From Octopus vulgaris (taxonomy: Eukaryota), in assembly GCA_951406725.2 (NCBI GenBank), contig OX597837.1, positions 13,392,001 to 13,456,000 of the forward strand: 64,000 nucleotides of DNA, in the 5' to 3' direction. The translations under genes and the position numbers were made by a program. Of the stretch, positions 30,240 to 63,278 are shown in pieces. Numbering within the stretch: position 1 is the stretch's first letter; every line of letters begins with the position of its first letter. A model generated the notes under the pieces. The model was not told the origin of the DNA, did no database searches, and saw nothing but the letters and a program-made list of their open reading frames with translations.

Positions 30240-30385
30240 CTTACAGACAAATCTTTTTCCTGATTTATTCTTATCTTGGAATTTTGGATTGTGTGCACTG
30301 GTTCTGGTTCGTAAGTCTCAACTTCAGGCTGACCAATAATAGCGCCAGTGGCTGCTGCTACAGCGGACTGAACCTCCATTGCCTC
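30240..30385 (-). CDS. BTB/POZ protein, constant exon C1 (shared phase-0 acceptor; internal ATG at 30379)
   Basis: ttgtttaatttacag|GAG GCA ATG GAG...TCT GTA AG|gtaaga. 146 nt open frame EAMEVQSAVAAATGAIIGQPEVETYEPEPVHTIQNSKIRINQEKDLSV. Its phase-2 end joins C2 (AG+C=Ser). Not in the supplied ORF track. Confidence 0.82.
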
Positions 30386-39363: not shown

Positions 39364-40671
39364 CTGTCGGTTTAGAGCAATTTCACTCAAATTAGGCAGG
39401 TGGGGGAAAGTATTGTCAGTATCGGTCTGTACCATTGACACACGCAGGCCAGACGGGTGTGGGCTGTAATTCATAGAACCCGCATTCGTATCGTGGGTCG
39501 CCTGCATTTCGTGGGACGACAGGGTGTTTAGGCCAGATATTGAACTGATACCGGGCAAAGCGAGCGACTGAGATGGTGTCGTCAGAGAGCTGCTGGTACC
39601 TTGTTGGGGGTCGAACTGAAATGCATCGAACACCTGAAAGAGGACGAACTTGGCTGTTGCACGGATGCAGTGGTTTGTGTAGACCCGGGAGAGTTTGGCC
39701 GTAAGCGCTATCCTTTTCATCATCGTGGACAAAGCTTCTTTTCCGAGTGGAGATGCATTATACCAGATGGAGTCCTGGAAGGATGTGGTCCGAGGATGCT
39801 GGAACAGAGCTAACTCGTGCGGGTTTCGCTTCCGCAGGTAGCGCTCGAACGTGGCCACTGGGCACACGGCATTACCTGTAGCATACATTCTCGCACTGCG
39901 ACTGGAGTCTGGGGACAACGGGGAGCTGTTCGATTCGATGCTACATCCGTTGGTGTACTGAGACAATGATTTCCGTTTGTAGACGTATTTTCGACCATAT
40001 TCGTCGGTACCAAAGCCAAAATGGTGAGGGGTGAGATAGCGCTGGTTCTCCTGTCCCCGACGAAAGAAATAAAATGTAATTTCAAACCAGACCTTGTTGA
40101 GGAGGCCTTCTGGTGTGTTGGGGTTAAACACCTGACTGTGGGAATAGAGAGTAGCCATGTCAGCCTGGCTGATCGGCTCTTTGTGTTCGATCGACCCTTT
40201 GCCAGCTTCTTTCAGTCGCTTCAAAGCCACTTTAAACGACATGTTCGATTTACGGAATGCCGGGTCGTTGACGATGTTCACAGTTTTCAGGTAACGGTTT
40301 AGTCCATGGCGAAGTGCAACCAACGAGGAAAAACTATAGAACTGGCCGCCTTGTGTACGGACGTTGATGTAGAAATCAGAGAGCAGTTCATCCAACTCAC
40401 TCTTGGCCATATCTTCAATGGCAGTATTGATACCACGGCTATGGCAGAAGTCACGGAATATTTTCGCGCTGTACTTGGTGGCTTCTTTGGTTTTTTTGCT
40501 GTCATACTGATGGGGTTCTTTCGATGGTGGAGGCATGACCAATAGAGGGACATCTTCGTGAATAACTCCAGCCGATTGTAAAGGAATGTTAGTGCTAGCA
40601 AGCAGAGAGTTTGCAGTAGAAGTGCACGGCGGAGGAGTCGGCGACGACGAGTCTAGTGGATTGGAAGCCAT
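39364..40671 (-). CDS. Variable first exon V1: Crypton-derived tyrosine-recombinase-fold (DUF3504-like) domain
   Basis: ATG at 40671 (MASNPLDSS), 436 codons to AAC CGA CAG|gtaagt. Motifs FYINVRTQGGQFYSFSSLVALRHGLNRYL, TPEGLLNKVWF, FRRGQENQR, CPVATFERYL, WYNASPLGK, YTNHCIRAT are typical of Crypton/KCTD1/ZMYM/QRICH1 DUF3504. Confidence 0.85.
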
Positions 40672-40699
40672 TAGTAACCTTCTTCCGCACGGCACTACG

Positions 40700-41050
40700 T
40701 TCTAGTAGCGTGACGTCACGGCAACATAGATGCGTAGTGAGCACTACGAGAAGACATAGTGCCCCAACACTATAGAAGCCAAATAAATATTACAGATTTA
40801 TATAAAAGTTGCACGGATTTTTTCCCTCCTTGTAAATTTTTCGCACGGCTATATATTTCCGGGAATACTCTGCTTATACGTTGTTGAAAGAAAGCAAAGA
40901 AGCAAATTAATAGTCGATAGCACCTCTCCCACTATCTCTCTCAGTCTATCATACACATCACTATATCCTTATATGTTGCTGACCGCTTCACTCACAAAAG
41001 AAAAAAAATATATAAGATTAGTCCGCCGTGACGATAGAATGGCGGCCCAA
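40700..41050 (-). promoter_or_regulatory. Putative promoter of V1
   Basis: Perfect 12-bp palindrome CGTGACGTCACG (CRE core TGACGTCA) at 40709-40720, ~40 nt upstream of the ATG. YY1-like AATGGCGG at 41038-41045. Locally CpG-rich. No polypyrimidine acceptor before the ORF. Confidence 0.5.
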
Positions 41051-41329
41051 CTACAGACAATAACACAAGTCAGCTTAGTTAGTTAACTAATTAAATGTTG
41101 AGGAAGACGAAACGAAGAGGGGGGTGCGTGGATAGAAATACGTATTCCTTCAGAAGTAGGGTATATATATATTTACGGAAAATAACTGTGTTATCATAGA
41201 TTGGCGATGTAGCCCAAAAACATGAAGAAATAGTAATTATTAAATGACCATTTCAATATAATTTTACTAATTATTATTAAGCTGGTGTGGGTATATAATA
41301 TATATGTAGGAAAAAGAGATAGACAGATA

Positions 41330-41532
41330 TATGTATAAATGTGTGTGTGTGTGTGTATACATATCTATCTATACATCTATATCTATATATATATATATCT
41401 ATATATATATATGCATATCTATATATATATATGCATATCTATATATATATATATGCATATCTATATATATATGTATGCATATCTATATATATATATCTAT
41501 ACACACACATATATATCTATATCTATACACAC

Positions 41533-41563
<31 letters not shown>

Positions 41564-42604
41564 CACACATATATATAAATACACACACACACCTATATAT
41601 ATATATGTTTATGTATGCGTATGTATATATAAATGCACAGGTATACGTACGGCTCTGTGTGTGTGTGTGTGCATATATAGACAGATTAATATTGCCTCTA
41701 TATTGTGTGCGCGCGCGATTGTGTATATCACTATAGGGAAATGGTTAATTGGGACTTCGAAGCTTCGGCTTACTCATCAGATTGTCAGCCACAACTTCGA
41801 AGTTACTCTCAACATTTTCCTTCCTGAAATTAAAAATTATATATATATACATATATATATACATATATACATATACATATATATATACATATATACATAT
41901 ATATATATATACATATATATATACATATATACATATATATATATATACATATATACACATATATACATATACATATATACATATATATATATACATATAT
42001 ACATATACATATATATATATACATATACATATATATATACATATATACATATACATATATATATATACATATATACATATATACATATATATATATACAT
42101 ATATACATATATACATATATATATATACATATACATATATATATACATATATATATATATATACATATATACATATATACATATATATATATACATATAT
42201 ACATATATACATATATATATACATATATATATATACATATATATATACATATATATATATACATATACATATATACATATATATATATACATATACATAT
42301 ATATATATATACATATACATACATATACATATATATATATATACATATACATATATATATATATATACATATATACATATACATATATATATATATATAC
42401 ATATATACATATACATATATACATATATATACATACATATATATATATACATATACATATATACATATATATACATATACATATATATATATATATACAT
42501 ATATACATATATATATATATACATATATACATATATATATATACATATACATATATACATATATATATATATACATATATACATATATATATATATACAT
42601 ATAC

Positions 42605-42651
<47 letters not shown>

Positions 42652-42692
42652 CATATACATATATATATATATACATATACATATATATATAC

Positions 42693-42724
<32 letters not shown>

Positions 42725-42967
42725 ATATATACATATACATATATATATATATACATACATATATACATATATATATATACATATACATATATACATATAT
42801 ATATATACATATACATATATACATATATATATATACATATACATATATACATATATATATATACATATATATATATACATATATACATATATATATATAC
42901 ATATACATATATACATATATATATACATATACACATATACATATACATATATATATATATATATATT
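41330..42967. repeat. Compound (TA)n/(TACA)n/(CATATA)n microsatellite field
   Basis: ~1.13 kb pure tract at 41838-42967 plus a looser tract at 41330-41640; source of the spurious IY/YI ORFs. Confidence 0.97.
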
Positions 42968-43221
42968 CTTTTATTTGTTTCAATCATTTGGCTGCGGCCA
43001 TGCTGGAGCACCGCCTTTAGTCGGACAAATCGACCCCGGGACTGACTTATCCTTTGTAAGCCTAGTACTTAATGTACTGTCCTGTTTTGCCGAACTGCTA
43101 GGTTACGAGGACGTAAACACACCAACAGCGGTTGTCAAGCAGTGGTGGGGAACAAGCACAAAGACAAAACCCCACACACAACCCATACCAGCATGGACAA
43201 AAGTCGTTAAATGATGATGAT

Positions 43222-43270
<49 letters not shown>

Positions 43271-43970
43271 TTTTTGGTATCTGGCTACCAAATCCACTCG
43301 GTTTTGGACACCCAGAAGCTATAACTGGAGACACTTGATGAAGGTGCCACCCTGTGGGACTGAACTCAGAACCATGTGGTCAAGAAATATATATAAATTT
43401 AATACAAATGTATATATATATATATATATATATACATACATACATATATATATATATATACATACAAATATACCTATATGCATATACATATATATACATA
43501 TCCATATATATACATATATACACACACACACACATATATATATACACATATATATACATATATAAACACATACACACGTGGGGGGTGCTGAATAAATACT
43601 GGTTCTGGGTAAAATTTAGGAGGGTCAGTTAATAAGGTTGGGCCTCCAACCAGACACCCTGAAAGCCAGGAACTTTTCAATGTCCCCCCATATGTGTGTG
43701 TGTGTGTGTGTGTGAAAGTGCATGGCGCAGTCAGGCCCTGTGCTCATGATCACCAGACTGTAGTTTCAATTCCCAAACCAAGCGGCATCATGTCCTTCAG
43801 CAAGGTGTTTCATTTTATGTCCCTTTCACTAGGCGGAGATTAACCTTGTGATGGCCTGGCACTGCATTCACAGGTATTGCAATCCCAGGTGCAAAAATGT
43901 CATTGAAATCAAGACAGACTCTAGCCTATAGGCTGGAAAGATACACACATGTATGGACGGACACACACAC

Positions 43971-44004
<34 letters not shown>

Positions 44005-44184
44005 GCCTCAGGTGGCACATAAAAACACCCACTACACTCACGGAGTGGTTGGCGTTAGGAAAGGCATCCAGCTGTAGAAACACTGCCAGATCTGACTGGC
44101 CTGGTGCAGCCTTCGGGCTTCCCAGACCCCAGTTGAACCATCCAACCCATGCTAGAATGGAAAACGGACGTTAAACGATGATGA

Positions 44185-44236
<52 letters not shown>

Positions 44237-45507
44237 TAGTAATATTATAATAATAATAGTAGGGAATATTATATAATATTTTGGAAATATGCTGTGCTTG
44301 AGAAGACCCGGCAAGCCAAATGAGACCATAACCTGTGGCCTATGCCAGAAGCATAACCAGCCCGCTTATGCGTACCTTTTCCTTCTTTGGTCACTATGTT
44401 TGCGAAGACCTGTTGAGGCAAGTGAAATCAAAATCAAATTCGATGACTGGCATCCAATCAGGGTGCCACATAAAAAGCCCCTAGTACAGTTTGTAAAGTG
44501 GTTGGTGTTAGGAAGAGCAAATGTCTTCTGCTGTAGCCCCCAGTTGACCAATACCTTGTTAGAACTTCTATAGTTTCTATCCACCAAATTCACTCCCTCT
44601 GTATATGTGTTCATCTCTCTGAGTATGTCATTGCTGCCACCCACTAGATAAGCTATGTTGGTTTGTTTACGTCCCCATAACAGTGGTTCAGCCAAAGGAA
44701 CTGAAAGAATAGGTACCAGACTATAAAAATAAGCGTTGGGGTAGATTTGTTTGACTAAACCCGTAAAGGTGGGGCTTCATTTTGGTTGCAATCCAATGAC
44801 AGAAGCGTGGAACAACAGAATAAAGAGTTGTTATTCTTAAAATATCTATAAAGCATCTTATTTCGTTACTTTTGTCCTTTAGTGGATCAAATTATAAAAA
44901 TTCTATGGTTCAACGAGTTATTAGCTGTTTTTAGTATAACAGCGGCTGACGAGGTGAAAAGTTAGTCAAACACGCAGCTGTCCTACGAAATAGCATATGG
45001 TAAATATTCCATATTGTTCTGTGTGATACGTCTGAGGTCCGTTCGTCCCGTTTGATTATACCAGACATAAACTGGGGCACCAATTACCTGTCCGGTTAAT
45101 GTGTGTGTGTGTGCGCACGCAGCACACATACAAACCACCCCAAAATATTTATACTTAATCCATCTTGGCTGCAAACAATATTCTGTGAACCATTTATATT
45201 GGCGATTCGGTCAGGATTATAAACTTCGTGAATTATAGGAAGAATAGATTCAAGATATATATATATATATATAAAACATATACAATAAGGAAAAAAAATA
45301 AGCAAAAACCATGAATATCATAAAAAAACGTTTACTACTACTACTACTACTACTACATTAACACGTATTATGATAAACAATAAGTGAATTAGAAAAGTGA
45401 TTTCTAACTACAGTGACCTAGTTACTGATCAGCATTAGTGACCCAGGTTTGGAACACAGAGAACTGTTGAAGTTACGAAGTACCAAATACTACACAGACA
45501 CACACAC

Positions 45508-45510
<3 letters not shown>

Positions 45511-45592
<82 letters not shown>
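45511..45592. repeat. (AG)n microsatellite
   Basis: ~41 uninterrupted AG units. Confidence 0.95.
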
Positions 45593-45595
<3 letters not shown>

Positions 45596-47217
45596 TAGTG
45601 CTTCGTTGCTGGTGATATCAACAAGAAAAAGCACTCCATCCAGTGAGAGAGATAAATATTTTAATATACACAGGATTTAAATGCGAGTTACTATCAGTTT
45701 CATGTCTCTGAAAATACGAAATAACAGTGTGTGTTAGTGTAAGTGTGAGCTTACACATCTATCTAATGATGAAGACACACTGGTGCTAATCTCCACACAC
45801 ATACATACATACATACAAGAGTGGGAGAAGCGATATAGAACAGGATTTTGCTCCAACTTGTTCATCCTTAATCGAGCTCATTTGCCTGTCTCTCTCAAGC
45901 CTTGCATCCACACACAACAATAAGAGCCTGCTGATAGAATGGTAGTAGTCTTCAGTAGAAACTCCTAACTTTATATAGTGCCGCCACGCTTAGTCTCTTC
46001 TCACACCCATCGTATCACACAATCTGCATTATTATTATCATCATCATAACTAATCGATAACAGATTATTTAATCTATCACAAGACATCGAACTACTCTTG
46101 AATATTATTAGAATGTTCTTTTGTTTTTTTATCTCCTTTCTTTCTTTCTTTCCAGATTATAGTTGGACATCAAATACTACCACTGTTTTAGAACACGGAA
46201 CTATATTCGCTATTCGAAGCCTCGAGACACGAAAGCTAAATTAATCGAAACTTCGAAACCTGCATTTTCGTCTCAAGAACTATATTTTGGTTCGCTTCCT
46301 TGTAGTTTCAGTATTTTTGTTGTTATTTCAACCCCCATTCAGCACTGATCGCACACAAAAGGATTTAAACAGCTATAACCGTCTCATTCGCCCCTAATTC
46401 AGCTTATCTAGGACTACCATTATCCAGGACTATTTTATGAGTGAAGTTTTACTGCTATTTCTAGCAGGTGAAGTGCAATATTGAGACTCCCTCGTTGGCT
46501 AACTAGAAATAACAGCTAACTTAAACTCATATCACATCCCACTGCCTTTAAAACGACCAAGGAAAAGTGTTGCACAGTGTAGTCCCAAATACACTGTATC
46601 TGTCCCGGGGTAATTTTTTTTTTCTTTTTAAAGAGACGATTATCCTTAACTGAAAGGTTTTCCACCAGGCACTGGCAATCTGAAATGCCGCGCCTAACCA
46701 CAAATTACCTTCAACTTTTTTTTTTCTTTCTGTTAATAGTGTGGCCCGCCTGATAAATAATGTGTAGTGGTTCACAACCAGGGTCCATTATAAAATTTTG
46801 GGAGATCCATGCAGCAAAATACGAAATTGTACTTTAAGGGCCCTTGAAAAACATTTTGATCTAGATGTATGTATTGTTAGAGCTAGGTTCTTTCTCTACC
46901 TAGTTCAAACTACGAAATTAATGAGTGAAAAACAAAGTAGGAATTTTAAAAGAAGTTTCTATAAAACTAGTTCTTTAATCATCGGAAGGCAACGGGGGTC
47001 CACCAAAATAAAATATCAATCAAGGGGATCCATAGATTTTTAAAAAATGGTTGACAACCCTTGAGTTATGTATCTCATATGGCCCACTTCTCGAAAATGG
47101 TACCCAGTATTTTGACTGCCAGTCAATTTCACCCCCCGATGTTAGGAAAAAATAAAACGTTGAATAAAGAGATACAATAAAAAGCCAAATCGACTGAGCG
47201 ATTGGAGGGTCACTTAC

Positions 47218-47607
47218 TTTTGCTTGACGCCAGTTCCTGATATTGCGACTTACATGCGAAGAGGGAGGCATGAGAGCCATTTCCTTGTCATCAAGCTTTT
47301 CACGAATGGTCGCAATTAACGAACGGGAAGATTCCTGGGAAGCGGCTGCTTGGGCCTTCAGGTCCGCCAAAGTTTTGCGAACTTTGGGCACGGAAGCACA
47401 CGAACTATGAAGATGTTCACCAACGCGCTTCACTATGGTATAATCTTCGTCGTGTGTCATGGTGTGGACTCGGGCTTTACAGGACCTAATTTCGCATTTC
47501 CAGTAAGTCTTAGATCCATCGGAATTTTTTTTCTGTGTTTCATATATGTAATTCATGTTATCCACAAGTTTCTTCCCTCCGCGGATGCTGTTAAATACGT
47601 GAGGCAT
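47218..47607 (-). CDS. Variable first exon V2: FLYWCH zinc finger (N-terminus of a MULE-type transposase)
   Basis: gcaccATG at 47607, 130 codons to CAA GCA AAA|gtaagt. SIRGGKKLVDNMNYIY...TYWKCEIRSCKARVHT...VGEHLH is a FLYWCH pattern, followed by the helical linker (LMPPSSHVSRNIRNWR) seen in FLYWCH-MULE transposases. No DDE domain. Confidence 0.85.
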
Positions 47608-47701
47608 GGTGCGTGTGTATTTTCTCTTTAAGTAACGGATGAGGCAAGAACGGATCCCGGATAAACCTATAAACTCATGTTTTTTTTTTTTTCTAATATC
47701 A

Positions 47702-47782
47702 GGAGTGAAATTACCGGAAGTGAAACTGACTGGCAGTCAAATTACCGGAGTCAAAATACCGGAAGTGAAATTACCTAGAATC
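47702..47782 (-). repeat. 15-bp tandem subrepeats containing CCGGAAGTG; probable Mutator/Phantom-type terminal repeat serving as V2 promoter
   Basis: About five units of GGA(A)GTGAAATTACC ending ...CTAGAATCC, ~95-175 nt upstream of the V2 ATG. Two ETS-type CCGGAAGTG sites. Confidence 0.55.
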
Positions 47783-49322
47783 CTCGAAAACGTTGCTCAA
47801 TGGAACCAAACAAAAATTGGGGGGAGGGGTACTACAGACAGCTCTCTCTCTCTCTCTCTCACACACACATATATATACACGAGAAAATAAAATTTACTTA
47901 GGGTGTGTAAACCCAGGTTTAAAAATTTTTTTTTTTACAAACCTTGTTTGGAAGAGATTTGTAAAATCTTCGGGGGAGGTGCACTTGCACCAGCTGCACT
48001 CCCTATTCCCGGGCCTATAACACACACTCACGGTCCGCTCATACATTTACCCCTATTCTCAAGTAAACAACCGAGGTGTTTAACTGTTTTCTGGATGTCC
48101 ATCCACTTTGAGTTGTCAGAAACATGTGAAAGGGGTTAGAGATGATCCCTATCAACAGGGTCCTCGGACAGATTTGATTTTACTTGATATATCTTCTATG
48201 TTCCAGTCATTAGTTTGCTACTTATTCTATTAGTCTCTTTTGCTGAACTGCTAGTTCACAGGGATGTAAAACTCACCAACAGCAGTTGTCAAGTGGTAGC
48301 AGGGGACAAACAGACACGAAGACACACACATACAGATATAAATATATACAATGGGCTTCATACAGTTTCCGCCTGCCAAATCCACTCACAAGGCTTTGGT
48401 CAGCCCAACATTATAGTAGAAGACAGTTGGCCAATATGCTACACAGTGGGACTGAACCAGGAACGTTGTGGTTGGGACGCAAGCTTCTTACCACACAGCC
48501 ATTTATTCCTAAATTAAAGCAAAGAACCCCAAAGCATACAAATGTAAAGGTTTTGCCTAAATTTTTGTTTCTTTTCCTTTTTTCTTTGGTATGAGACTGA
48601 TGTTGCCTAATTAATTTGAATAACGATGAAGAAGACTACGTGGAGTTGATTACATTTGTTTGTTGATTGTTTTTAAGCCCTACTAACTGGTATTCAGCGA
48701 ATTCTGAATTCTGTCAATTTGGTAAATAATAAAAGAATTATTTCTATCTACAGAAACAGTGGAATCCCTTATACACTTTTAGCCAATCATATTAAGAGCC
48801 CCTATGAAGGGGCTCTTAATGTAATCAAACCAACCATTTCTGACCAAAATATAGTACCCGTTTTATGGTCAAACTGACTAGAATTGGCCTAACCTACAGT
48901 GTTATTCCAAAATTATATAATCACATCATTGAAACCTCAAAGCTACGAGATAATGAAGGATTAACTCAAAATGATGTGAATAAAAAAACATTTGACAAAA
49001 TAATCTGAAAGCCAAAGGGATAAGGACAGTGAAACACTAATGATGGCTGGCATTATGAAGATTGGGGAAAGAAGTGACATAGCTGAGTGTGCTGTCCAAG
49101 GCAACCCTTGTGTTTGCCAAAGCATGCTTATACAGCAGACCCAAGGGTGCTGCCCTGATAAAAGCATTGGATGGGGCAGGCTGTCCCTTCGTCCCTAGCT
49201 ATGTAATTGGGGAAGCTAAGTAAAAGCATGGTCTTACTTAGTCTTTGCACACTGGCTAGTCCCTTGCAACCCTCTCCAGCTGAGCATCTCTAATCTTGGG
49301 AGCTCATAAGTGCTGGTGCCAT

Positions 49323-49652
49323 GTATATAATAATGAAATTATTGTATAAAGTGCTCAGGTGCACCACAACTTGTCAAAAGTGCGTATAAAGCATATACAG
49401 TAATGTACAAATGTCTGGGAAGTGAACAGTGTATGAGTCAGATACATGCTTGTGTGTGAATGAAGGGGAGAAAATCAGGTGTAGTGTTGGCGAATCTCAG
49501 GAAGAATGGAGGTTTTGAAGGATGCAGTGCTCCGATAACTAACAACTGATGCCGGCAGTTTGTTCCGTACTTCAGCAACTCTTAGCGTGAAAAAAATTTT
49601 CTGAAAGTCATGGGAGCTGTGCTGTTTTCTGACTTTGTAAACATGTCCACAG
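49323..49652 (-). mobile_element. CR1/L2-group LINE 3' end
   Basis: TCGHVYKVRKQHSSHDFQKIFFTLRVAEVRNKLPASVVSYRSTASFK matches the TRGH..K...FF..RV...WN.LP..VV...S...FK terminus. Confidence 0.75.
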
Positions 49653-50456
49653 GTGCTGCGTAAAAGCATCAAGTACACATGGTAAAGGGGTTGGTGTTAG
49701 GAAGGGCACCCAGCCGTAGAAACCACGTCAAAATAGACATGGAACCAGAACAGTATTTCAGCTGGCCAGCTTCAGTCACGCAATCCAGCCCATGCCATCA
49801 CGGAAAACAGATATTAGATGATGTATACAATAGTTGTAACTGTAGTATCATGCATAAATCTGTAAAACAAAAACAATCTCAAAACCAATTTCATTCATTT
49901 ACAATGGTTACTGGTTCAATCCCACCGGTTGACACCTTGGGTAAATAAATATCTTCCACTATAGTTCTAGGGCAACCAATGCATTATGGAGGAAACTATG
50001 TAGAAGCCTGTTGTACATCCTCATCATCATTTAACATTCGTTTCCCATACTGGCATGGGTTGAATCGCTTGGCAGGAACGGGCAAGCCAGAGGACTGCAC
50101 CAAGATCTACTGTCTGCTGTTGCATGGTTTCTACAGTTGGATAGCTTTTTTAGCGCCAACTACTTTCCAGAGTGTAGTGGATGTTTTTTACAAGGCACCA
50201 GCAAGGTCACCAAGTAACTTGCAATACAAAGATCCCAAAATACCTGTTACATGGTAGCAGGGCATTCAAAAAATAGCAGCCAAATCTTTCCTTTTTCTGG
50301 GGAAGGGAGCCGTTTACACATGATTTCGATGTCACATTTGTTGAAAGCATGCGAAATAACCTGGAAAAGAAAAAAATCCACAAAACAAAACACTGTTGCT
50401 GGGAAACTCCCAGTTTCCTGGTGACCCAATGGGTCACAGGTTGTCTAGTATGTATA

Positions 50457-50532
<76 letters not shown>

Positions 50533-50533
50533 G

Positions 50534-51396: not shown

Positions 51397-51439
51397 GAAC
51401 AATCAAAATCAAATCATATATCAGAAAGCAGGGGTTAAG

Positions 51440-52839: not shown

Positions 52840-53063
52840 AGCTGGCAGACGCGTTAGCACGCCGGGCGAAATGCTTAACTGTATTTCGTCTGCCGTTACG
52901 TTCTGAGTTCAAATTCTGCCGAGGTCGACTTTACTTTTCATCCTTTCGGGGTCGATAAATTAAGTACCAGTTGCGCACTGGGGTCGAGGTAATCGACTTA
53001 ATACCTTTGTCTGTCCTTGTTTGTCTCCTCTATGTTTAGCCCCTTGTGGGTAGTAAAGAAATA
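52840..53063 (+). mobile_element. tRNA-derived SINE with 14-bp target-site duplication, inserted in an old LINE relic (~52380-53280)
   Basis: TATAATAGCCTCTG at 52826-52839 and 53064-53077. Body AGCTGGCAGA...GAGTTCAAATTCTGCCGAGGTCGACTT...GGGGTCGATAAATTAAGTACCAG recurs at ~540-745(-), 2130-2335(-), 10680-10830, 29965-30175(-), 35835-36052, 56070-56250(-), 60955-61145. Confidence 0.85.
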
Positions 53064-54013
53064 TATAATAGCCTCTGCCCTTTGGAAACAACTGGCTATG
53101 TACCGCCATCACTCGAGCACCCTTCACCCACTCATTATCTTAGTTGCATCTACCCCTACCTCCACTAACCACTATTTCTAGTCCTTTCTTCCTAAAACAT
53201 TACCCCTCAAGAATCTCTTTTCCAGCTCATGTCCTCCTTGCTGGAACAGACCATGTGCTGTTCTCACAAGCCATATATTTACTCTTTGGTCATTGGTCTG
53301 CTGTGACGGGGGCTGACTAATGGGTAACCGAACCCGCTGACTACGAAATAGTTCCCTACATAATAAATACGTCACAATTGTAGGTTTAAAAAATTACAAA
53401 CACAGCCTTATACGAAAATCAGTGTTTTATGTTATATTTGATGTTCACTTCAAAACCTGGGGTGCGGCTTGTACACGGGACAAAGCTAAAACTATGAATG
53501 GAAGAATTTTGTGCCGTGATTTAATACTGAATTTGTTACGCGACTTATACCCGAATAGATACGGTGCATAGTTTCGAAGCTGAGTGCAACCTGTAAGGTA
53601 AATTATTTATGTCAGTGCATAAAAATGAAACCTCGTGTCACCATTTCCAAGACAAGTGTTACCACGCTGTTTTGAAACGATAACCCCCAGAAAATCCCTG
53701 GCCTCTTCTACAAAACAATGCCTATAAATACTTCAAAGAAATAAAAATTACAAACTCGGCCTTATATGAAATGACAGTCTCTATGTTGAGTGAAACAGGT
53801 TACGAAAATTATTCATGTCAGAGTATGAAGCGAAACTTCGATTGATTGGCGAGGAGTGAGGGTCACCATTCCCAAGACATGTGCAACCACGCTGTTTTGA
53901 AATGATAATAATAATATCCAAGAACATCGCTGGCCTCCACTGCAAAATATAACGACGTTGTTTTGAAAGTAATGTAAAATGCAAATATGATAAACAATTT
54001 TATCCAGACATAC

Positions 54014-54574
54014 CTTCCCATACTTGATATCAGCGATAGTCGCGATTTGTTGACTGGCATCCCAGTTAATTCCAGGTAGGTAGGACGAAGATTCATAGGC
54101 GGAGATTAAGTTAGCGGCAACAACTTCTGTCTTGATGGCATGTTCCAACTGTAGAGACGTGCTGCTGGTAAGGGCACTTTGCTGGTCATCTTGGAATTTT
54201 AACGGAAGCCCGTCAATGTTCGGGGCTTTCAGTAAACGCCTCGCGGGTTTCGGTAATCTCTTCAAAGAACTCGCCGTCGACCTGTTACGTATGGAAGGCC
54301 GATCGTTGCTGTGATTGTGGTTCTCCCTAAACGATATTAGCTCTTGTTTGTTCGACATGACAGCGCTAGAGAGACAGCCCAGTGTTTTACACTTCCAGTA
54401 AATTCTGTCTTTGCGTTTATAGTTAAGACGAAAGAGATAGCCATTTAAGGCCAAGAGTTGTCCGCCTCTCGTCGTCACGACCAGTTCGTACTCCGGCTGG
54501 CGCGGTTTGAATGTCTGCCTTTTTTTATTTAGCTTATAATCGTGGTTAACATTGAGAAACGAATCGTTCGCCAT
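54014..54574 (-). CDS. Variable first exon V3: FLYWCH zinc finger plus linker
   Basis: attATGG at 54574, 187 codons to TAT GGG AAG|gtatgt. TTRGGQLLALNGYLFRLNYKRKDRIYWKCKTLGCLSSAV...ENHNH is a FLYWCH pattern. The ORF becomes intron-like immediately after the donor. Confidence 0.85.
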
Positions 54575-56290
54575 AATGACAACACCTCTGTAGCAAATGC
54601 TTCGGCAGAGATGTAAATAAACTAAATATATATTCTCCTGTGCTGTATATTCAACGACAGTATACGCAAGACACTGATACGTTACGCAAATCGAGCAGAC
54701 ATTCGAAACAAGTAAAACTTGAAGGCGAATAAGGCAAAATTAGGACAAGGCGAAAAACAACAAAAAGCAGGCGAAACGACTAGCTTTGCTGAAATGTTAA
54801 TGGAAAAAAATGTACTTTTACCAGATAAATTCAAACTGATATATTACAAACTATCAGCCTTAGTTTCCTATTTGTCAACAACAAATACAAACAGCGAGCA
54901 TCAATTTATTTCTATGCTGCATAATGATTTATACGGAGTTTTATGAAACTACCATAGTACAGTTATGTTAATCTGTAAAGGCACTACAAAAGTAAGACTG
55001 GGCAAGACGGAACGAAACTTAATTTTTATATCTCTGTTTTTTTCGTTTTTGCTGCAGCATACCTACACAAGTGTGCCCCCTTCCTCACGATATTGTTTCT
55101 CCCATAACTTTTAGAAAAGTGAATGGATTTTAATGAAATTTTCAACAGATATCTTACAGATGGTGCATATTACGATTATATCAGAATTTAAAGGGAAAAA
55201 GAATGCTGGGCGCACACACACAAACATGCTAACACATCACATCTATCTTCAAAATAAAATTTGAAAAAAGTATGTGGTGCGTGTGAACACTGTACGTACG
55301 TACGCCCATCCTTATTTTTATTAATTTTTTTTTTTTTACACATTAAACTCCAATATAATTGGTATCAACACTGTCTGAAAGATATCTGTAGAAAATCTCA
55401 TTTAAAAATATCAATTTCTCTGAAAGTTATAAAGAAACAAAGTCGTGGAAAGCACACTTGTTTCGTATGTCGCTTTTTCTATGGTTTATGCGAGAGCGTT
55501 CTTACGATCTAGGTTTCCATTGCAGTTATTTCGGTAAAGTTCATTAATGCTTCGGGGAAGGGATGATTTCCAAATACATTATGTTCCCTACATCCCTGCT
55601 AATGCTATGAGGATAGCATTTAATTGATAATTTTAATACAGAACGGTTGAGCCATTGTTTTGTTACACTAGTAATTCAAATAAAATTATTAAGTTTTATT
55701 AACTCTGAAAGGCACAAAAAGAAAATGACTCTCCCCAGACACAACAGAATATGCTTCAACACACGAACTCACATAAAGAATCTTGCAAACCAAATCCAAA
55801 AACGAAATATTATTACTAGAATGTACGGATTTCCTTTTTAAATATGCAAGATAAAACAAAAAAATAATAAAGAAACTATAGAACAAAAAATTTAGTTTAA
55901 AAATCGAATTTTAAAAAAGAAATTTTCACCTGGTGTCTGAATGGAACAGAAGTTTGGTTGGGTTCTTGTTTCACAACTGCTTCAAGCTACAAAGAGAAAA
56001 AATTTGAACAAAAATTCATTTGAACAATAGGAGATCAGCATTTAGTAAGAATATAATATAAAATATTGATTTCAAAATTTTGGCACAAGGCCAGCAATTT
56101 CCGGGGATTACATCGACCTTAGTTCTCAACTGGTATTTATTTTATCGATCCTGAAGGATGAAAGGCAAAGTGGAACTCAGAATGTAAAATCGGAAGGAAT
56201 GCTGCTAAGAATTTTGTCCGGCGCGGTAACGGTTCTGCCAGCTCGCCGACTTGAAGTACAATATGAAATATTGATTTTGAGGTAGAGATA

Positions 56291-57805
56291 TAGGTTGAAA
56301 TCCCTTATCCGAAATTCCTAAAGATTTCGGAATATTTTTATACTTGCATCCATGAAATAGGACACCTTGGGGGATGGGACCCAAGTCTAAACACAATATC
56401 CACTTACATCTTATATTATATATATATTTTTTTATCCTTTTGCTTGTTTCAGTCATATGACTGCAACCAGGACTTTTTTTTTCAAACTCTAGTACTTATT
56501 CTATTGCTCTCCTTTGCCGAATTGCTAGGTTACGAGGATGTAAACACACCAGCACCGGTTGTCAAGCGGTGGTAGGGGACAAATACAAACACAATGACGT
56601 GCACACACACACATATATATATATACACACACACACAATGAGCCTCTTTCAGTTTCCGTCTACCAAGTCCTCTCACAAGGCTTTGGTCGGCCCGAAGCTA
56701 TAGTAGAAGGTACTAGCCAAAGGTACCGCGCAGTGGGACTGAACCCGGAACCATGTGGTTGGGAAGTAGGCTTCTTACCACACCCCCACGCTTAACACTA
56801 GAACAGTAAGATATCCGTTTCGATGTCATGTTTTGATTAAAAGATTACACTACATGTACGCCATTTGTATTTCATTCTTTGCTCTACGGATATTGGGTTT
56901 AATGTAAGATATAAACATTTTTAAAAAGCCAAAGCATTGAACATGATTACAGGTAAATAAAATGAAAACTGAAAAAGTCAACATAGCATTTTAAAAAAAA
57001 GCAATGTACAAATAACGATGTTAGTCATGTTATACTTATACACGGATGTGAAATTCGGGTCTAAAATAAGAATCACATTTTGGGCTTACTGTTTTTAAAG
57101 ATTTAATGCCGTGCCTTTTCCTAAATTTTTGCAACCAGTCTGCAGAATATTCACAGCTACCCCCAATTTTCAGTTTGTTATGATAGATTTTTGCCTGTTT
57201 CGTGATCAGCAATGCATTAAGCGGGATGTGTTTACTCTGGCACTGACGAATCCATTCCATTAGAACACGATCGTGATTTTCAGTTTTCGCTCTATGTAAT
57301 TTTTTCCTGTACTTCATCAAGCTTTGATCATCGCTTTCTTCATAGAACTGTCTTTTCAGGTCGTAGACAGTCGTTGTTCCGACACCAAACTCCTCCGCCA
57401 GTTGCTTCACACTTACACCGCTCTCAAGTTTTTTCAACAACTTAACTTTCTGCATTATAGTTAGACATAGATGTTTTCTCTTTTCACGATTACCCATGTG
57501 GGTATTTCCAGGCCTTTTCGACATTTCCGACATCTTCTTCTCGTCACAGGGCACAAAACAGGCGGCAATCACAAGTAACGAGCGAAGGTGTCACTCTGAT
57601 GGCTGCTAACAAACTTCCAACTGAACTTTGGACGATAAAACTGCACCCAGGGTAGGTGAGGTCACATACGATAACGGCACACAACATCTGCACTTGGTGG
57701 AACTTTCCTAGCACTTTGTAGAATATTCTATTTGAGGTATGTCATGTTAGAATCCACAAAAAAACTTTCGGATTTGGGAATTTCGGATAAAGGATTTTCA
57801 GCATG
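56291..57805 (-). mobile_element. Internally deleted Tigger/pogo (Tigger4/Zombi, Jerky-like) DNA transposon carrying V4; SINE nested at ~56430-56790
   Basis: TA|TAGGTTGAAATCCCTTATCCGAAATTCC at 56291 and its inverse GGAATTTCGGATAAAGGATTTTCAGCATG|TA ending at 57805. Internal GGGGATGGGACCCAAGTCTAAACAC resembles Tigger4-type subterminal sequence (from memory). DDE region absent. Confidence 0.75.
57090..57533 (-). CDS. Variable first exon V4: CENP-B N-terminal HTH (psq-type) + HTH_Tnp_Tc5, Jerky/TIGD-like
   Basis: ATG at 57533 (second ATG 57524), 148 codons to TTA AAA ACA|gtaagc. KRKHLCLTIMQKVKLLKKLESGVSVKQLAEEFGVGTTTVYDLK...SADWLQKFRKRHGIK. The donor falls right after the second HTH. Confidence 0.8.
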
Positions 57806-59354
57806 TATAGTCGATTAAATTGACCCCAGTAGTATGTAGTAGAATTTCAACGTCCACGATGCTTTCGCCGTGGGAGGTAGACAGTAATACCTTTATTTCT
57901 TGGATACTACAATAAATCAAACGAAATGTGTTGACATACAAGTTGTCTTGGTCTGTGATATAAATTACATTGTTAGAGAAGGGCTTCTAGAACTGAGTGC
58001 CCATAGTAACATCAACCATACAGTTACTAAGGCAGGTAAAGATGTGTGGAGATGTGAACTGTAATATATTCCACATCTCTATATTTCAGCCGCCTAAAAT
58101 CTTCAACGTCACTTTCCAAGTTTTTCTCACGAACACAACTTCGGCAAGTTTTCACTTATTATAGAAGAAATACAAGTAAAGTTTGCTATTTTATTTGAAG
58201 GTATTTTTTTAAAATGCAGTAAAAACTATCATCGCATCTCTTTCGATTAACTCCTCATTAACTCTCAGTCCAAGACAAAATAAAAGCTTGAAGGGTAACA
58301 CAGGAGATTTTACTCTGAAATATATTTTAGCCGAGATGTGTGCCTTGCCGATGGAAGTTTGGGGCGAATAACGAACCATGTTAGAAAGAGAACATCTCAA
58401 ATTTTTATCATTCCCCCCCCCCCTTTTTTACTAATTAAGACTATGAGTTTTATTTCACCCCAATTATCATAGCATAACTGAAGTGAAATACCTTTCTTAC
58501 AATGCTATAACCATGCAGCATTATAATTCGAATTATGTACATAACAATTTTATAACAGTCCCCAAAACTACCACAATATTAAATAATACCCTTTATCAAT
58601 ACTTTAAATTTCAGCAGGCAACCATCCACCCTCTGCCATATAGACAATTTTTTTGTGTGTATTGTTACAATACCCGCGTTCAACAGTGTTAAATAAAGTT
58701 AGTTTTACATTCGTTTAGCGTTGCAATGTCAGAATTAGATTAAAATCTATGTGCAATGGTGTTAAATATATATATAAAAAAAGACAATTACAGTTGTTTG
58801 TTATTGTGATGCCCCTTACCAGATTAGAACCCACGATCAATGATGTTAAAGTTAAGATGCATCCGTTTATATTTACAGTACCCCTATATATATACACACA
58901 CAATGGGCTTCTTTCAGTTTCCGTCTACCAAGTCCTCTCACAAGGCTTTGGTCGGCCCGAAGCTATAGTATAAGGTACTAGCCAAAGGTACCGCGCAGTG
59001 GGATTGAACCCGGAACCATGTGGTTGGGAAGTAGGCTTCTTACCACACCCCCACGCTTAACATTAGAACAGTAAGATATCCGTTTCGATGTCATGTTTTG
59101 ATTAAAAGATAACACTACATGTACGCCATTTGTATTTCATTCTTTGCTCTACGGATATTGGGTTTAATGTAAGATATAAACATTTTTAAAAAGCCAAAGC
59201 ATTGAACATGATTACAGGTAAATAAAATGAAAACTGAAAAAGTCAACATAGCATTTTAAAAAAAAGCAATGTACAAATAACGATGTTAGTCATGTTATAC
59301 TTATACACGGATGTGAAATTCGGGTCTAAAATAAGAATCACATTTTGGGCTTAC

Positions 59355-59813
59355 TGTTTTCAAAGATTTAATGCCGTGCCTTTTCCTAAATTTTTGCAAC
59401 CAGCCTGCAGAATATTCACAGCTACCCCTAATTTTCAGTTTGTTATGATAGATTTTTGCCTGTTTCGTGATCAGCAATGCATTAAGCGGGATGTGTTTAC
59501 TCTGGCACTGACGAATCCATTCCATTAGAACACGATCGTGATCTTCATTTTTCGTTCTATGTAATTTTTTCCTGTACTTCATCAAGCTTTGGTCATCGCT
59601 TTCTTCATAGAACTTCAACAGTTTGTCCTTTTGTTTCTTCAGGTCGTAGACAGTCGTTGTTCCCACACCAAACTCCTCGGTCAATTGCTTCACACTTACA
59701 CCGCTCTCAAGTTTTTTCAACAACTTAACTTTCTGCGTTATAGTTAGACATAGATGTTTTCTCTTTTTCCTTTCACGATTACCCATGTGGGTATTTCCAG
59801 GCCTTTTCGGCAT
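59355..59813 (-). CDS. Variable first exon V5: paralogue of V4 (CENP-B/Jerky-like double HTH)
   Basis: gaaATG at 59813, 153 codons to TTG AAA ACA|gtaagc. Same domain as V4, with intact KKQKDKLLKFY and SAGWLQKFRKRHGIK. Confidence 0.82.
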
Positions 59814-62289
59814 TTCCGACAATATCTTCTTCACGTCACAGGGCACAAAACAGGCGGCAATCACAAGTAACGAGCGAAGGTGTCACTGTGATGGCTGCTA
59901 ACAAACTGCCGTCAAACGGGCAACTGATGACGGGAAAACTACGCCCGAGGTAAGTGATGTCACGTGCCATAACGGCACACAACATCTGCACTTGGTGGAA
60001 TTTTCCTAGCACTCTGTAGAATATTCTATTTGAGGTATGTCTTGTTAACATTCACACAAAAAACTTTCGGATTTGGGGTGTTTTCGGATTTGGGAATTTC
60101 GGATAAAGGATTTTCAGCATGTATAGTCGATTAAATCGACCCCAGTAGTATGTGACTGATACTCCCTAATCAAGGAAGATGAAAAGTAAAGGCACTTTCG
60201 GTAGAATATAAATTTTTAAAGATACTTTTACTACAGCAATGTACTTCCGTCCGCCACTCTACCAATCCAAAAGTTAGGATTATTTCAGGTTGTTGGTAGA
60301 ATGAAAAACAGAGTTTTTTCAAGAAAATGCAGTTTTATGAAAATGTTTGGCCCGAGGTTTGGAAAGTGAAAAAAAAAAATCGTGAACACTCGAGGTCGCT
60401 ACAACAGCTAAATTTCCCGTTACTGAGGATCTCTCTTAATAATCCCACATACTTAATACACCAAAGACTACAGAACAAAAAATATCCTTTCCCTTTAGGG
60501 CCCGAAAATACTCGAGTCCCCAACAACTAACTTTCTACGAGGCCCGTGTGAGATCCAGAATGAAGTACCGCATTAAAAAAAAAAAGGCCACTCGACAAAA
60601 CCTGATATGAATTCGCTCATCATCTCTCCAAACTTCGGTGTCAAAGCATGTTGCCTCCTCTCAGTCATTTCTACTATTAGAGAGGCTTCTGCTTCTTTGA
60701 ATAAGTTGGTTTTGTGTCACTTCTACTCCAACACCATAGATTCGTCCATTCTCCCTCACGCCACCGCAGGCCAGTACGATCTTAGGAGCATTTATCGGGC
60801 CCGGGAAAATCAATGCACAGCTGTGAGCACTGAGTGACAGCATACAAGCGAGGTTTAAACTATTGGGGGATCGTAATAAATCTAGATAACCACAAATTCA
60901 ATAATTTTATCAAACGCAAACAACTCATGAGACCTATACTTCAAAATGTTTCAGTATATACACGGTATTTTGTCCGCCGTTATATTCTAAGTTCAAATTC
61001 TGCCGATGTCGACTTTGCCTTTCATCGTTTCGGGGTCGATAAATTTAGTACCAGTTACGCACAAGGGTCGATGTAATCGACTTAATCCCTTTGTATGCCC
61101 TTATTTGTCCCCTCTATGTTTAGCTCCCTGTGGGCAATAAAGAAATATATATATATATACACTTAACCTATTCGAATATATTCGGGATATTCGATTTAAA
61201 TCCTAAACCAACGTCACCTCCATCTTCTCAAAAGACTGCAGACTCAGGAAACTCTCTCTCCTCCCTTTCTATGTTCCTACAATGCATTAACCTCCCAAAT
61301 TTCAACGTCCACGATGCTTTCGCCGTGGGAGGTAGACAGTAATACCTTTATTTCTTGGATACTACAATAAATCAAACGAAATGTGTTGACATACAAGTTG
61401 TCTTGGTCTGTGATATAAATTACATTGTTAGAGAAGGGCTTCTAGAACTGAGTGCCCATAGTAACATCAACCATACAGTTACTAAGGCAGGTAAAGATGT
61501 GTGGAGATGTGAACTGTAATATATTCCACATCTCTATATTTCAGCCGCCTAAAATCTTCAATGTGACTTTCCAAGTTTTTCTTCGGCAAGTTTTCACTTA
61601 TTATAGAAGAAATACAAGTAAAGTTTGCTATTTTATTTGAAGGTATTTTTTTAAAATGCAATAAAAACTATCATCGTATCTCTTTACATTAACAGTCTCA
61701 GGCCAAGACAAAATAAAAGCTTGAAATAAAAGATTTTACTCTGAAATATATTTTAGCCGAGATGTGTGCCTTGCCGATGGAAGTTTGGGGCGAATAACGA
61801 ACCATGTTAGAAAGAGAACATCTCAAATTTTTATAACTTTTTCCTTTTTACTAATTAACACCATGACTTTTATTTCACAACATAGCATAACTTAAGTGAA
61901 ATACCTTTCTTACAATGCTATAACCATGCAGCATTATAATTCGAATTATGTACATAACAATTTTATAACAGTCCCCAAAACTACCACAATATTAAATAAT
62001 ACCCTTTATCAATACTTTAAATTTCAGCAGGCAACCATCTACCCTCTGCCATATAGACAATTTTTTTGTGTGTATTGTTACAATACCCGCGTTCAACAGT
62101 GTTAAATAAAGTTAGTTTTACATTCGTTTAGCGTTGCAATGTCAGAATTATGTTAGAATCTATGTGCAATGGTGTTAAATATATATATAAAAAAAGACAA
62201 TTACAGTTGTTTGTTATTGTGATGCCCCTTACCAGATTAGAACCCTCGATCAATGATGTGAAAGTTAGATGCACCCGTTTATATCTACA

Positions 62290-62646
62290 GTACCCCTATT
62301 CGTGTTAATCCATGTTTAATAGCGTTAAATAAGTTATATATATATTTGTTTAATGTTAGACTGACCCCAGTCGGATTAGAACCGACGTTTAATGGTGTTA
62401 AAATTTTTTTTAAATGTAATATACATTTGGTTATCGTTACAGTGTACCCCATTCGGGGTGGACCCCACGTTTAATAGCGTTAAATAAATAAAGTTATATA
62501 TATTTATTTAACGTTACACTGACCCCAGCCGGATTAGAACCGACGTTTAATGGTGTTAAATTTTTTTTTTAATGTAATATACATCTGGTTATCGGTGCAA
62601 TGTGCCCCATTCGGGGTGGGCCCCGCGTTTAATGGTGTTAAATAAA
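62290..62646. repeat. ~157-bp tandem repeat (about 2.3 units) built from GGATTAGAACC / CCCCATTCGGGG subunits
   Basis: Units start near 62290, 62444 and 62602; related degenerate subunits at 62140-62270. Confidence 0.75.
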
Positions 62647-62693
62647 GAGCAGAACAGAAAGAGAGTCCAGGGGAGACAAATATATAAACTTAC

Positions 62694-63278
62694 ATTTTCC
62701 ATCACCAAGTCCTCACTTTTCAATATCCTCAACATAAACAAATCCGACTGCGACTGGTCATTCTTGTCGTTCCATCGACCCGTCGCCGGATTTGCTGACT
62801 TCACTGGACTCTTGTTGAATCTGGCCTTACTACAATGGTTCTTGTAATTTCCATGTCTGCGACTACTGCACCTCGGACACAGAGAAATATAGATTTTTAT
62901 GGCTTCGGCCGTCACATTGGCATATAATTGACGGGTGATGTTCTGCATTCTGTTGATACCAGCATGGGAATGAGTTAAGTGAACAGCTTTCAGGGCTCGG
63001 AATAAATCCTCGTCGGCGATGTAAGGACGAACGGATTCCGAGTCTCTTCGTCTTCTTCTCTTAATTAGTTTGGTTCCTTGATCATTGGTGACCAAATCAA
63101 AACGGCGAGTTACATTGTATTCTTCCCCAGTCCAAGCGGTTTTCTTGTCCCAAGCCCCTTTCAAAATGAGCAGGTATTTGTTGTATTGTTCCTTTGTCAT
63201 GCTAACTACATTTTTACCTATTTTCTCATTTTTCTTCACTCTCCACGTTCTCAAGAATTCTTCTTCGGACGTCAACAT
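62694..63278 (-). CDS. Variable first exon V6: Ginger/KRBA2/SCAND3-like N-terminal region with integrase H2C2 zinc-binding motif
   Basis: atcATG at 63278, 195 codons to ATG GAA AAT|gtaagt. YIADEDLFRALKAVHLTHSHAGINRMQNITRQLYANVTAEAIKIYISLCPRC has the H-x4-H...C-x2-C pattern of KRBA2-like integrases. The rve catalytic core is absent. Confidence 0.8.

What the first reader, a model, noticed from the sequence alone, without database searches (positions are those of the whole stretch)
39364..63278. Every captured transposon module keeps DNA binding and drops catalysis: a possible transposon trap
Seen: V2 and V3 stop before any MULE DDE core, V4 and V5 are cut right after the second HTH, V6 ends before the integrase rve core, and V1 lacks the distal catalytic His/Tyr. 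Known: host-transposase fusions typically retain the DBD, and KRAB-transposase fusions in tetrapods act as sequence-specific repressors. Inference: a DNA transposon landing in sense upstream of C1 brings its own promoter and DBD and needs only a phase-0 donor to become a BTB fusion that could bind the termini of its parent family. The locus could act as a protein-level transposon memory or silencing system, or a generator of new regulators acting at dispersed MITEs.
Basis: inference. Interest (0 to 1): 0.85.

Follow-up and report, generated by a model that had tools for sequence, protein, structure and literature searches.

The report
Octopus gene collects transposon DNA-binding heads
This octopus gene carries six alternative front ends taken from jumping DNA ahead of one shared protein-pairing (BTB) tail, and it likely uses them to build new gene regulators rather than to remember and silence transposons.

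Summary
The architecture is real. Six sense-strand exons with transposon-type binding domains (Crypton, FLYWCH x2, Tigger HTH x2, integrase HHCC) lie ahead of a constant BTB module. V2, V4, V5 and V6 never join C1 directly (0 of 4).

Catalysis is absent in all six. For DDE families this is largely geometry, because the binding domain comes first. It is informative for V1 only.

Capture is recurrent: V1 and V6 are old, while V2, V4 and V5 sit inside dead MULE and Tigger copies. The memory or silencing idea is weak. V1, V3 and V6 have no cognate family in the genome, V1 is 90-99% conserved to cuttlefish, its best fold match is the co-regulator QRICH1, and few cognate ends survive.

Paralogues repeat the design (33 of 82 sense ORFs carry such domains, 0 of 45 antisense). 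It works like a mirror-image mod(mdg4). This scan already noted the family on other DNA; my four literature searches found no description of the cassette.

The parts
27080..28012 (-). C3: last constant exon, C-terminal part of BTB plus low-complexity tail and stop
   Evidence: Pfam BTB; exon model; part of RefSeq-type protein P0001
28883..29033 (-). C2: constant exon, N-terminal part of BTB
   Evidence: C1-C2 join in 4 of 4 runs
30240..30385 (-). C1: first constant exon with the shared phase-0 acceptor
   Evidence: contigs cover exactly this exon and branch at its acceptor
39364..40671 (-). V1: Crypton-derived dead tyrosine recombinase (DUF3504), 436 aa, old and strongly conserved
   Evidence: joined to C1 in 3 of 4 runs; fold like QRICH1 and Cre
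47085..47767 (-). Internally deleted MULE copy that holds V2; inverted ends at 47085-47132 and 47720-47767
47218..47607 (-). V2: FLYWCH head, 130 aa, intact; splicing to C1 not seen
   Evidence: 0 of 4 runs
54014..54574 (-). V3: single-copy FLYWCH head, 187 aa
   Evidence: joined to C1 in 2 of 4 runs; relative P0111 173 of 187 identical
55930..55986 (-). X: 57-nt phase 0/0 adaptor exon with a SUMO-type consensus; has at least two upstream partners
   Evidence: joined to C1 in 3 of 4 runs; contig equals the exon exactly in 2 runs; X-like tail on Argonauta V6 model
56298..56322 (.). 3' terminal inverted repeat core of the Tigger/JRK-like element
   Evidence: 92% complementary to both 5' copies
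57090..57533 (-). V4: CENP-B-type double HTH, duplicate of V5 with 6-nt and 18-nt in-frame deletions
57773..57797 (.). 5' TIR core upstream of V4
59355..59813 (-). V5: CENP-B-type double HTH, 153 aa, intact; likely joins through X (not shown)
   Evidence: relative P0112 85% identical with the same deletion junction
60089..60113 (.). 5' TIR core upstream of V5
62694..63278 (-). V6: single-copy integrase-type HHCC zinc-binding head, 195 aa; likely joins through X
   Evidence: Argonauta relative 76% identical with X-like tail

Best explanation
The locus is a cassette gene in which alternative first exons taken from transposon 5' ends are spliced, directly or through adaptor exon X, onto one constant BTB module, and the products likely act as host chromatin or transcription regulators rather than as a silencing memory. 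SHOWN: V1, V3 and X join C1 in RNA contigs; V2 and V4/V5 sit in sense-oriented, internally deleted DNA transposons; V1 and the BTB are under strong constraint. INFERRED: a transposon that lands in sense upstream of C1 supplies a start codon, an N-terminal binding domain and probably a promoter; a pre-existing or deletion-made phase-0 donor cuts it before the catalytic core; the now intronic core is free to be deleted; useful heads are kept and copied between paralogues long after the parent family has died; isoforms would pair through the shared BTB and so combine different heads. Any binding to parent-family ends would be the starting state of young heads, not the lasting function.
For: Splice joins. 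V1-BTB fusion in Octopus vulgaris, O. bimaculoides, Argonauta and cuttlefish, with the recombinase region 90-99% and BTB 95-99% identical against 56-84% in linkers of the three distant species. V2 intact with pN/pS 0.40 while 9 of 9 dispersed copies are broken (0.51-1.74; pooled p 0.049). The 7 closest of 16 genomic relatives of V1 are heads at paralogous BTB loci, which points to inheritance and duplication. Paralogue LOC115220336 has RefSeq isoforms with three different FLYWCH heads and one CENP-B-type head on one BTB body. At paralogous loci 33 of 82 sense and 0 of 45 antisense ORFs carry such domains, and 31 of 36 best donors are phase 0. The BTB matches dimeric kelch, BACH and BCL6 types. 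Precedents: KCTD1 isoform b (PMC3212892), ZBTB11 (PMC5384227), mod(mdg4) (PMC5666082).
Against: No binding, localisation or regulatory data. V2, V4, V5 and V6 fusions were not observed, and no V3-BTB full-length protein was found (weak test). V5 constraint is not significant (p 0.14). V5 carries 10 derived changes against 4 in P0112 (p 0.18), and V4 versus V5 shows 9 non-synonymous to 5 synonymous changes. The cuttlefish-linked V6 model P0128 breaks off before the CxxC. A comparable captured HTH in nematode F-box genes did not bind DNA or regulate transcription (PMC12062965 section 8).
Confidence: 0.6

Rival explanations
1. Protein-level transposon memory. Each captured head targets the BTB module to the ends of its parent family and represses it, so the locus is an adaptive anti-transposon archive, comparable in purpose to piRNA clusters.
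For: Heads come from many superfamilies and of different ages. V2 and V4/V5 have dispersed relatives at about 80% and 70% DNA identity. KRAB-transposase fusions repress cognate TIR reporters (10.1101/2020.05.07.082677, passages). SUMO-type consensus sites lie in V3, V6, X and C3 (link to repression recalled).
Against: V6 has 0 and V3 only 3 weak (27-34%) other genomic matches. The genome's catalytically complete Crypton family is about 28% identical to V1 and in a separate clade (100/100), so it is not V1's parent. The Tigger TIR core has only 18 genome-wide matches at 2 mismatches, 3 of them here. 0 of 65 other V2-like hits have an open frame over 277 aa. The 2 of 19 V5-like hits with long frames are 35-46% identical and share no TIR. 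V1 shows stasis, not arms-race turnover. These genome counts are lower bounds.
Confidence: 0.13
2. The heads work mainly as protein-interaction or co-regulator modules. They dock on other DNA-bound factors (for example C2H2 zinc-finger proteins) or on other partners and bring the BTB with them.
For: The top structural match of the V1 model is a chain of Zincore (SEPHS1:QRICH1) bound to ZFP91 on DNA (9hjt, E 2.4e-7). Mod(mdg4) variable ends interact with proteins and its FLYWCH aids recruitment to Su(Hw) sites (PMC5666082, passages). F-box A2 HTH domains do not bind ancestral TIRs (PMC12062965 section 8). Integrase HHCC domains aid multimerisation (PMC5384227, passage).
Against: FLYWCH and CENP-B-type HTH are established DNA-binding folds. 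V1 keeps both recombinase domains with a Cre-like fold. No partner was tested.
Confidence: 0.19
3. Only the old heads are functional; the young ones are tolerated passengers whose donors are accidents, and the apparent rule is an ascertainment effect of looking for in-frame first exons.
For: V2's donor is inherited coding sequence and no V2 join was seen. V4/V5 donors score weakly (1.5 against 5.3-8.9 for the other heads, with a recalled weight matrix). V4 is eroding.
Against: V2 and V5 are intact where 9 of 9 and 4 of 4 family copies are broken. Both V4 deletions keep the frame. The V5 junction is shared with another protein record (P0112). Antisense copies of such domains are absent at paralogues. 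As an account of the whole locus it fails on V1, V3 and V6; for V2/V4/V5 alone I would give it about 0.3.
Confidence: 0.08

Closest known systems
Drosophila mod(mdg4) (PMC5666082, passages read; PMC1702500, passages read); lola seen only as a reference title in PMC11426971
   Same: One constant BTB part combined by splicing with many alternative exons, many of them FLYWCH or other transposase-type domains.
   Different: Order is reversed here (variable first exons, constant BTB last). Heads come from unrelated superfamilies and include still recognisable insertions. The TTK-type BTB is reported absent from Mollusca (PMC11426971, passages). Trans-splicing is untested.
Vertebrate KCTD1 isoform b (PMC3212892, passages read)
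   Same: A Crypton copy inserted upstream of a BTB gene forms a single-exon, catalytically dead DUF3504 head on an alternative isoform.
   Different: One head only. The octopus BTB matches kelch/BACH/BCL6-type structures and no KCTD entry is among the 50 hits, so the fusion looks independent.
Vertebrate ZBTB11 (PMC5384227, passages read)
   Same: N-terminal integrase-like HHCC finger followed by BTB, the architecture predicted for V6-X-C; acts as a host repressor.
   Different: ZBTB11 has C-terminal zinc fingers and a fixed head. The V6 fusion is not yet observed in RNA.
Tetrapod host-transposase fusions such as KRABINER (10.1101/2020.05.07.082677, passages read)
   Same: Capture by splicing; binding domains predominate (76.5% of transposon-derived domains).
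   Different: One capture per gene, host domain usually first, KRABINER keeps a full-length transposase, and repression of cognate TIRs was shown there but is untested here.
QRICH1 in the Zincore complex (PDB 9hjt; paper seen only as a citation and one sentence in PMC13538652)
   Same: Domesticated DUF3504 fold; best structural match of V1.
   Different: 17% identity, no BTB; a partner for V1 was not tested.
Caenorhabditis F-box A2 genes (PMC12062965, section 8 and passages read)
   Same: Transposase HTH captured at the N-terminus of a protein-interaction module.
   Different: Single capture then expansion; shown not to bind ancestral repeats or affect transposons, which is a caution for the trap idea.

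Membership tests
mod(mdg4)/lola-type variable-exon BTB locus | Constant BTB region shared by alternative exons | tested here: met
   three different upstream exons join C1
mod(mdg4)/lola-type variable-exon BTB locus | BTB at the N-terminus, variable exons at the 3' end | tested here: not met
   variable exons are 5', BTB is in the last two exons
mod(mdg4)/lola-type variable-exon BTB locus | TTK-type multimerising BTB | tested here: inconclusive
   best solved matches are gigaxonin, BACH1, BCL6; PMC11426971 found no ttk motif in Mollusca; no direct motif test run
mod(mdg4)/lola-type variable-exon BTB locus | Trans-splicing | not testable with these tools
   all exons are colinear on one strand; allele-resolved long reads needed
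Host-transposase fusion gene | Transposase-derived exon spliced in frame to a host domain | tested here: met
   V1 and V3 joins; V1-BTB proteins in four named species
Host-transposase fusion gene | Purifying selection on the captured domain | tested here: met
   V1 90-99%, V3 FLYWCH 54 of 55, V6 70-76%; V2 p 0.049, V5 p 0.14, V4 not constrained
KRAB-transposase-type repressor of cognate elements | Cognate family with termini present in the genome | tested here: not met
   not met for V1, V3, V6; only dead, diverged families for V2, V4, V5
KRAB-transposase-type repressor of cognate elements | Sequence-specific binding to and repression at the TIR | not testable with these tools
   needs EMSA, CUT&Tag, reporter assays
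DUF3504 domesticated Crypton genes | Tyrosine-recombinase fold without the complete R-H-R-Y set | tested here: met
   Pfam DUF3504 E 7e-11; distal His and Tyr absent; Cre/QRICH1-like fold, model pLDDT 82.6
KCTD1/KCTD15 | KCTD-type BTB | tested here: not met
   Pfam BTB PF00651; 0 of 50 solved-structure hits are KCTD proteins, although the cuttlefish record is labelled KCTD1_15
Cullin-3 adaptor BTB proteins | BACK/kelch or other substrate module after the BTB; Cul3 binding | tested here: inconclusive
   no BACK or kelch family in C3; Cul3 binding not tested

The most novel reading that the evidence does not exclude
Coleoid cephalopods run an adaptive, protein-based transposon trap: a family of BTB cassette loci samples the DNA-binding heads of each invading DNA-transposon family, uses the fresh fusion to occupy and silence that family's ends, and later recycles the head as a transcription factor for the sites the family scattered. 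The largest locus adds about 11 tandem BTB tails behind some 25-30 heads, allowing head-by-tail combinations.
Probability: 0.13. Interest if true: 0.9.

Novelty: new variant of a known kind. Interest (0 to 1): 0.62.

Why it matters
One gene that has gained heads from at least four unrelated transposon groups, at different times, holds several stages of transcription-factor birth side by side: old and frozen (V1, V6), intermediate (V3), young (V2, V5) and eroding (V4). That makes a standing question directly testable in one locus: do captured transposase domains first police their parent family, or go straight to host work? It also adds a hidden source of regulator diversity in cephalopods that gene counts miss, and shows convergence on the Crypton-BTB (KCTD1b) and HHCC-BTB (ZBTB11) designs of vertebrates.

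Tried and rejected
More heads upstream: none among 77 ORFs listed in the next 200 kb and 0 of 56 scanned.

Exact look-up of 8 unspliced head ORFs: 0 of 8 in the collection. Search for long V3 fusions: 0 of 880 candidates (weak). The run index listed no holder on record as RNA; the exon-exon joins show the four laid runs are spliced RNA.

Full-length fold of V1-BTB failed (pLDDT 28.6) and was not used. V6 had no solved relative by sequence. No complex prediction was run, since a BTB homodimer is the textbook case.

Rejected: that these exons are 3' variable exons of a gene further upstream (each has its own ATG and a donor, and joins run V to C); that V1 derives from the currently complete Crypton family; that the locus is KCTD1. 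The C11 paralogue shows a single multi-exon head in 100 kb fetched, and the C10 copy is a broken last exon.

PMC12111275 (oyster BTB clusters, passages read) does not describe this cassette. Supplements of PMC10027918 were not read and may list these octopus genes.
Full report
IDENTITY. The window is G000:C24:13392001-13456000 of a 2.8-Gb genome. Its V1-C1-C2-C3 product matches P0001, labelled LOC115223832 isoform X1 of Octopus vulgaris/sinensis. The gene lies on the minus strand: six candidate first exons V6 to V1, a 57-nt exon X, and three constant exons encoding a linker, a BTB domain and a low-complexity tail. All six heads end at phase-0 donors and read through without stops, with or without X.

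OBSERVATION. Pfam confirms the domain types and finds no catalytic transposase family. V1 keeps the first Arg and H-x-x-R but not the distal His and Tyr; the genome's free Cryptons keep both (3 of 3 aligned copies). A model of the V1 core (pLDDT 82.6) matches QRICH1 in Zincore first and Cre recombinase next. V6 keeps an intact HHCC pattern, and its look-alikes are Integrase_H2C2 clusters; its superfamily was not determined.

SPLICING. Contigs from four runs of four studies were laid on C1. All four join C1 to C2. Loose ends at the acceptor match the ends of V1 (3 of 4 runs), V3 (2 of 4) and X (3 of 4); the fourth run's contig starts at the acceptor. In two runs the X contig is exactly the 57-nt exon, so X has at least two predecessors that differ at their last base: V4/V5, V6 or unspliced RNA. 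No direct join of V2, V4, V5 or V6 was seen (0 of 4), though contigs drop rare forms. An Argonauta gene model joins its V6 relative to an X-like peptide and is two accession numbers from its V1-BTB model. So V6-X-C is likely, V4/V5-X-C plausible and V2-C unproven.

AGE CLASSES. Old: V1's recombinase region is 99% identical in O. bimaculoides, 97% in Argonauta and 90-93% in a cuttlefish-cluster protein and one further unnamed record, against 56-84% in the linkers of the last three; the octopus-cuttlefish split is roughly 270 million years old (recalled). V6 is 76% identical in Argonauta and 70% in a record sharing a contig length with a cuttlefish-cluster V1, though that model breaks before the CxxC. 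V3 has one unnamed relative at 173 of 187. V3 and V6 are single-copy here.

Young: V2 lies in a 680-bp MULE remnant with inverted ends whose family is about 80% identical. V4 and V5 lie in a Tigger/JRK-like element within a tandem duplication of about 2.3 kb, family about 70% identical.

WHY CATALYSIS IS MISSING. In MULE and pogo transposases the binding domain is N-terminal (PMC1702500 passages for MULE; pogo recalled), so any first-exon capture keeps it and any early donor drops the core. V2's donor is inherited coding sequence (GT in 8 of 9 copies examined); the core was deleted 33 nt downstream, whereas the 9 copies run on into transposase sequence. The V4/V5 donor arose at a deletion joining the second HTH to the element's 3' end. 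The bias is also known: 76.5% of captured domains in tetrapod fusions are binding domains (10.1101/2020.05.07.082677, passages). The non-trivial case is Crypton, where the whole fold is kept and only catalytic residues go: 0 of 8 Crypton heads at BTB loci keep the full set (read by eye). That shows selection against cutting, as in all DUF3504 genes (PMC3212892, passages), not a trap.

SELECTION ON YOUNG HEADS. V2 has no stop or frameshift and pN/pS 0.40 against the family majority, while 9 of 9 copies are broken with 0.51-1.74 (pooled p 0.049). Frameshifts were scored relative to V2, and a distinct subfamily origin could mimic this. V5 is intact (0.38) and 4 of 4 copies covering the region, of 8 fetched, are broken (p 0.14). 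Against this, V5 has 10 derived changes to 4 in P0112 (p 0.18). V4 differs from V5 by 9 non-synonymous and 5 synonymous codons and two in-frame deletions, with 15 of 435 exon against 8 of 465 flank substitutions.

TEST OF THE MEMORY IDEA. A memory needs targets. V6 has no other match and V3 three weak ones. V1's 7 closest of 16 relatives are heads at other BTB loci, and the complete Crypton family is about 28% identical and split off at 100/100 (long branches, midpoint root). The Tigger TIR core has 18 matches at up to 2 mismatches, 3 in this locus, control 0. No V2-like hit among 65 has a frame over 277 aa. The two long-frame V5-like genes among 19 are 35-46% identical and lack the TIR. These counts are lower bounds. 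The best-kept heads thus have nothing cognate to silence, and the genome's one complete family related to a head is not that head's parent. A transient silencing phase right after capture is not excluded.

THE FAMILY. LOC115220336 (C15) has RefSeq isoforms with three FLYWCH heads and a CENP-B-type head on one BTB body, plus two Crypton ORFs. LOC115209932 maps to C3:148.96-149.36 Mb, where about 11 tandem BTB modules lie behind 23 Pfam-positive heads (THAP, CENP-B, Brinker, psq, Tc1, FLYWCH, DUF3504). Over 49 fetched loci, 33 of 82 filtered sense ORFs (85 less 3 BTB exons) and 0 of 45 antisense ORFs carry such domains (p 3e-8); none of the sense set has a catalytic transposase family; 11 further loci were not scanned. 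Background is 0 of 56. Best donors are phase 0 in 31 of 36 heads (30 of the 33, three THAP-like by eye, three from C23 and C2; recalled weight matrix). These loci were chosen for their architecture, so the bias is conditional on that. Abalone has a THAP-BTB protein, and scallop relatives have the reverse order with many different C-terminal domains.

MECHANISM. Shown: three joins, the inherited or deletion-made donors, constraint on old heads. Inferred: element-borne promoters, BTB pairing of isoforms (BTB resembles dimeric kelch/BACH/BCL6 types), nuclear regulatory action. I give 0.60 to host regulators built by recurrent capture, 0.19 to adaptor or co-regulator heads, 0.13 to silencing memory and 0.08 to passengers.

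NOVELTY. Each ingredient is known: mod(mdg4) (PMC5666082, PMC1702500, passages), KCTD1b (PMC3212892), ZBTB11 (PMC5384227, passages) and host-transposase fusions. PMC10027918 (section 5 and passages read, supplements not read) notes that most Octopus CENPB and THAP factors carry BTB but treats BTB as transposon-derived and describes no cassette. Four searches found no description of variable first exons on a mollusc BTB gene; the library lacks most subscription papers. Verdict: real locus, new variant of a known kind, trap-as-capture supported, trap-as-memory unlikely; interest 0.62.

Noticed in passing
G000:C3:148.96-149.36 Mb (L091-L130): About 11 tandem BTB constant modules lie behind an array of at least 23 transposon-type heads, with further heads between the modules; head-by-tail combination is possible but untested.
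   Followed up: partly
L095:876-1124, L095:3111-3353, L095:4623-4865, L096:6932-7168; L093:7375-7473: Four half-THAP exons end at phase-0 donors after the third Cys; a downstream exon starting with His could complete the zinc site.
   Followed up: partly
window 59355-59813 against P0114, P0116, P0121: The octopus Tigger head is 71-72% identical to mammalian-type Tigger proteins, some annotated as SMIM8 isoform fusions in rodents; horizontal transfer and a parallel fusion are possible.
   Followed up: no
P0021-P0065; L005 (G000:C5:47.68 Mb): Related mollusc proteins carry BTB first and varied C-terminal domains (DUF3504, BEN, psq, Ets, C2H2, CENP-B, zf-Tnp_2): a true mod(mdg4)-order locus, with an octopus member on C5.
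   Followed up: partly
window 27140-27170 region of C3 and paralogues: A short Tyr/Phe-Pro-Val/Ile-Gly/Ser-Leu motif is kept in the otherwise divergent tails of 12 family proteins; a candidate cofactor-binding site.
   Followed up: no
L131, L133, L136, L137 (G000:C4, C5, C17, C10): A young, near-identical Crypton family with complete catalytic residues in 2 of 3 aligned copies exists in this genome.
   Followed up: partly
window 15545-17992 (+): Single long ORF with a RabGAP-TBC domain, convergent with the BTB gene.
   Followed up: no
window 40700-40720 and 41040-41060 (-): A CRE-like palindrome and a YY1-like motif (both recalled consensus) lie near the presumed V1 start.
   Followed up: no
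L037 (G000:C10:34.40 Mb): Broken copy of the last exon of the C11 paralogue, with no other exons matched in 100 kb.
   Followed up: partly
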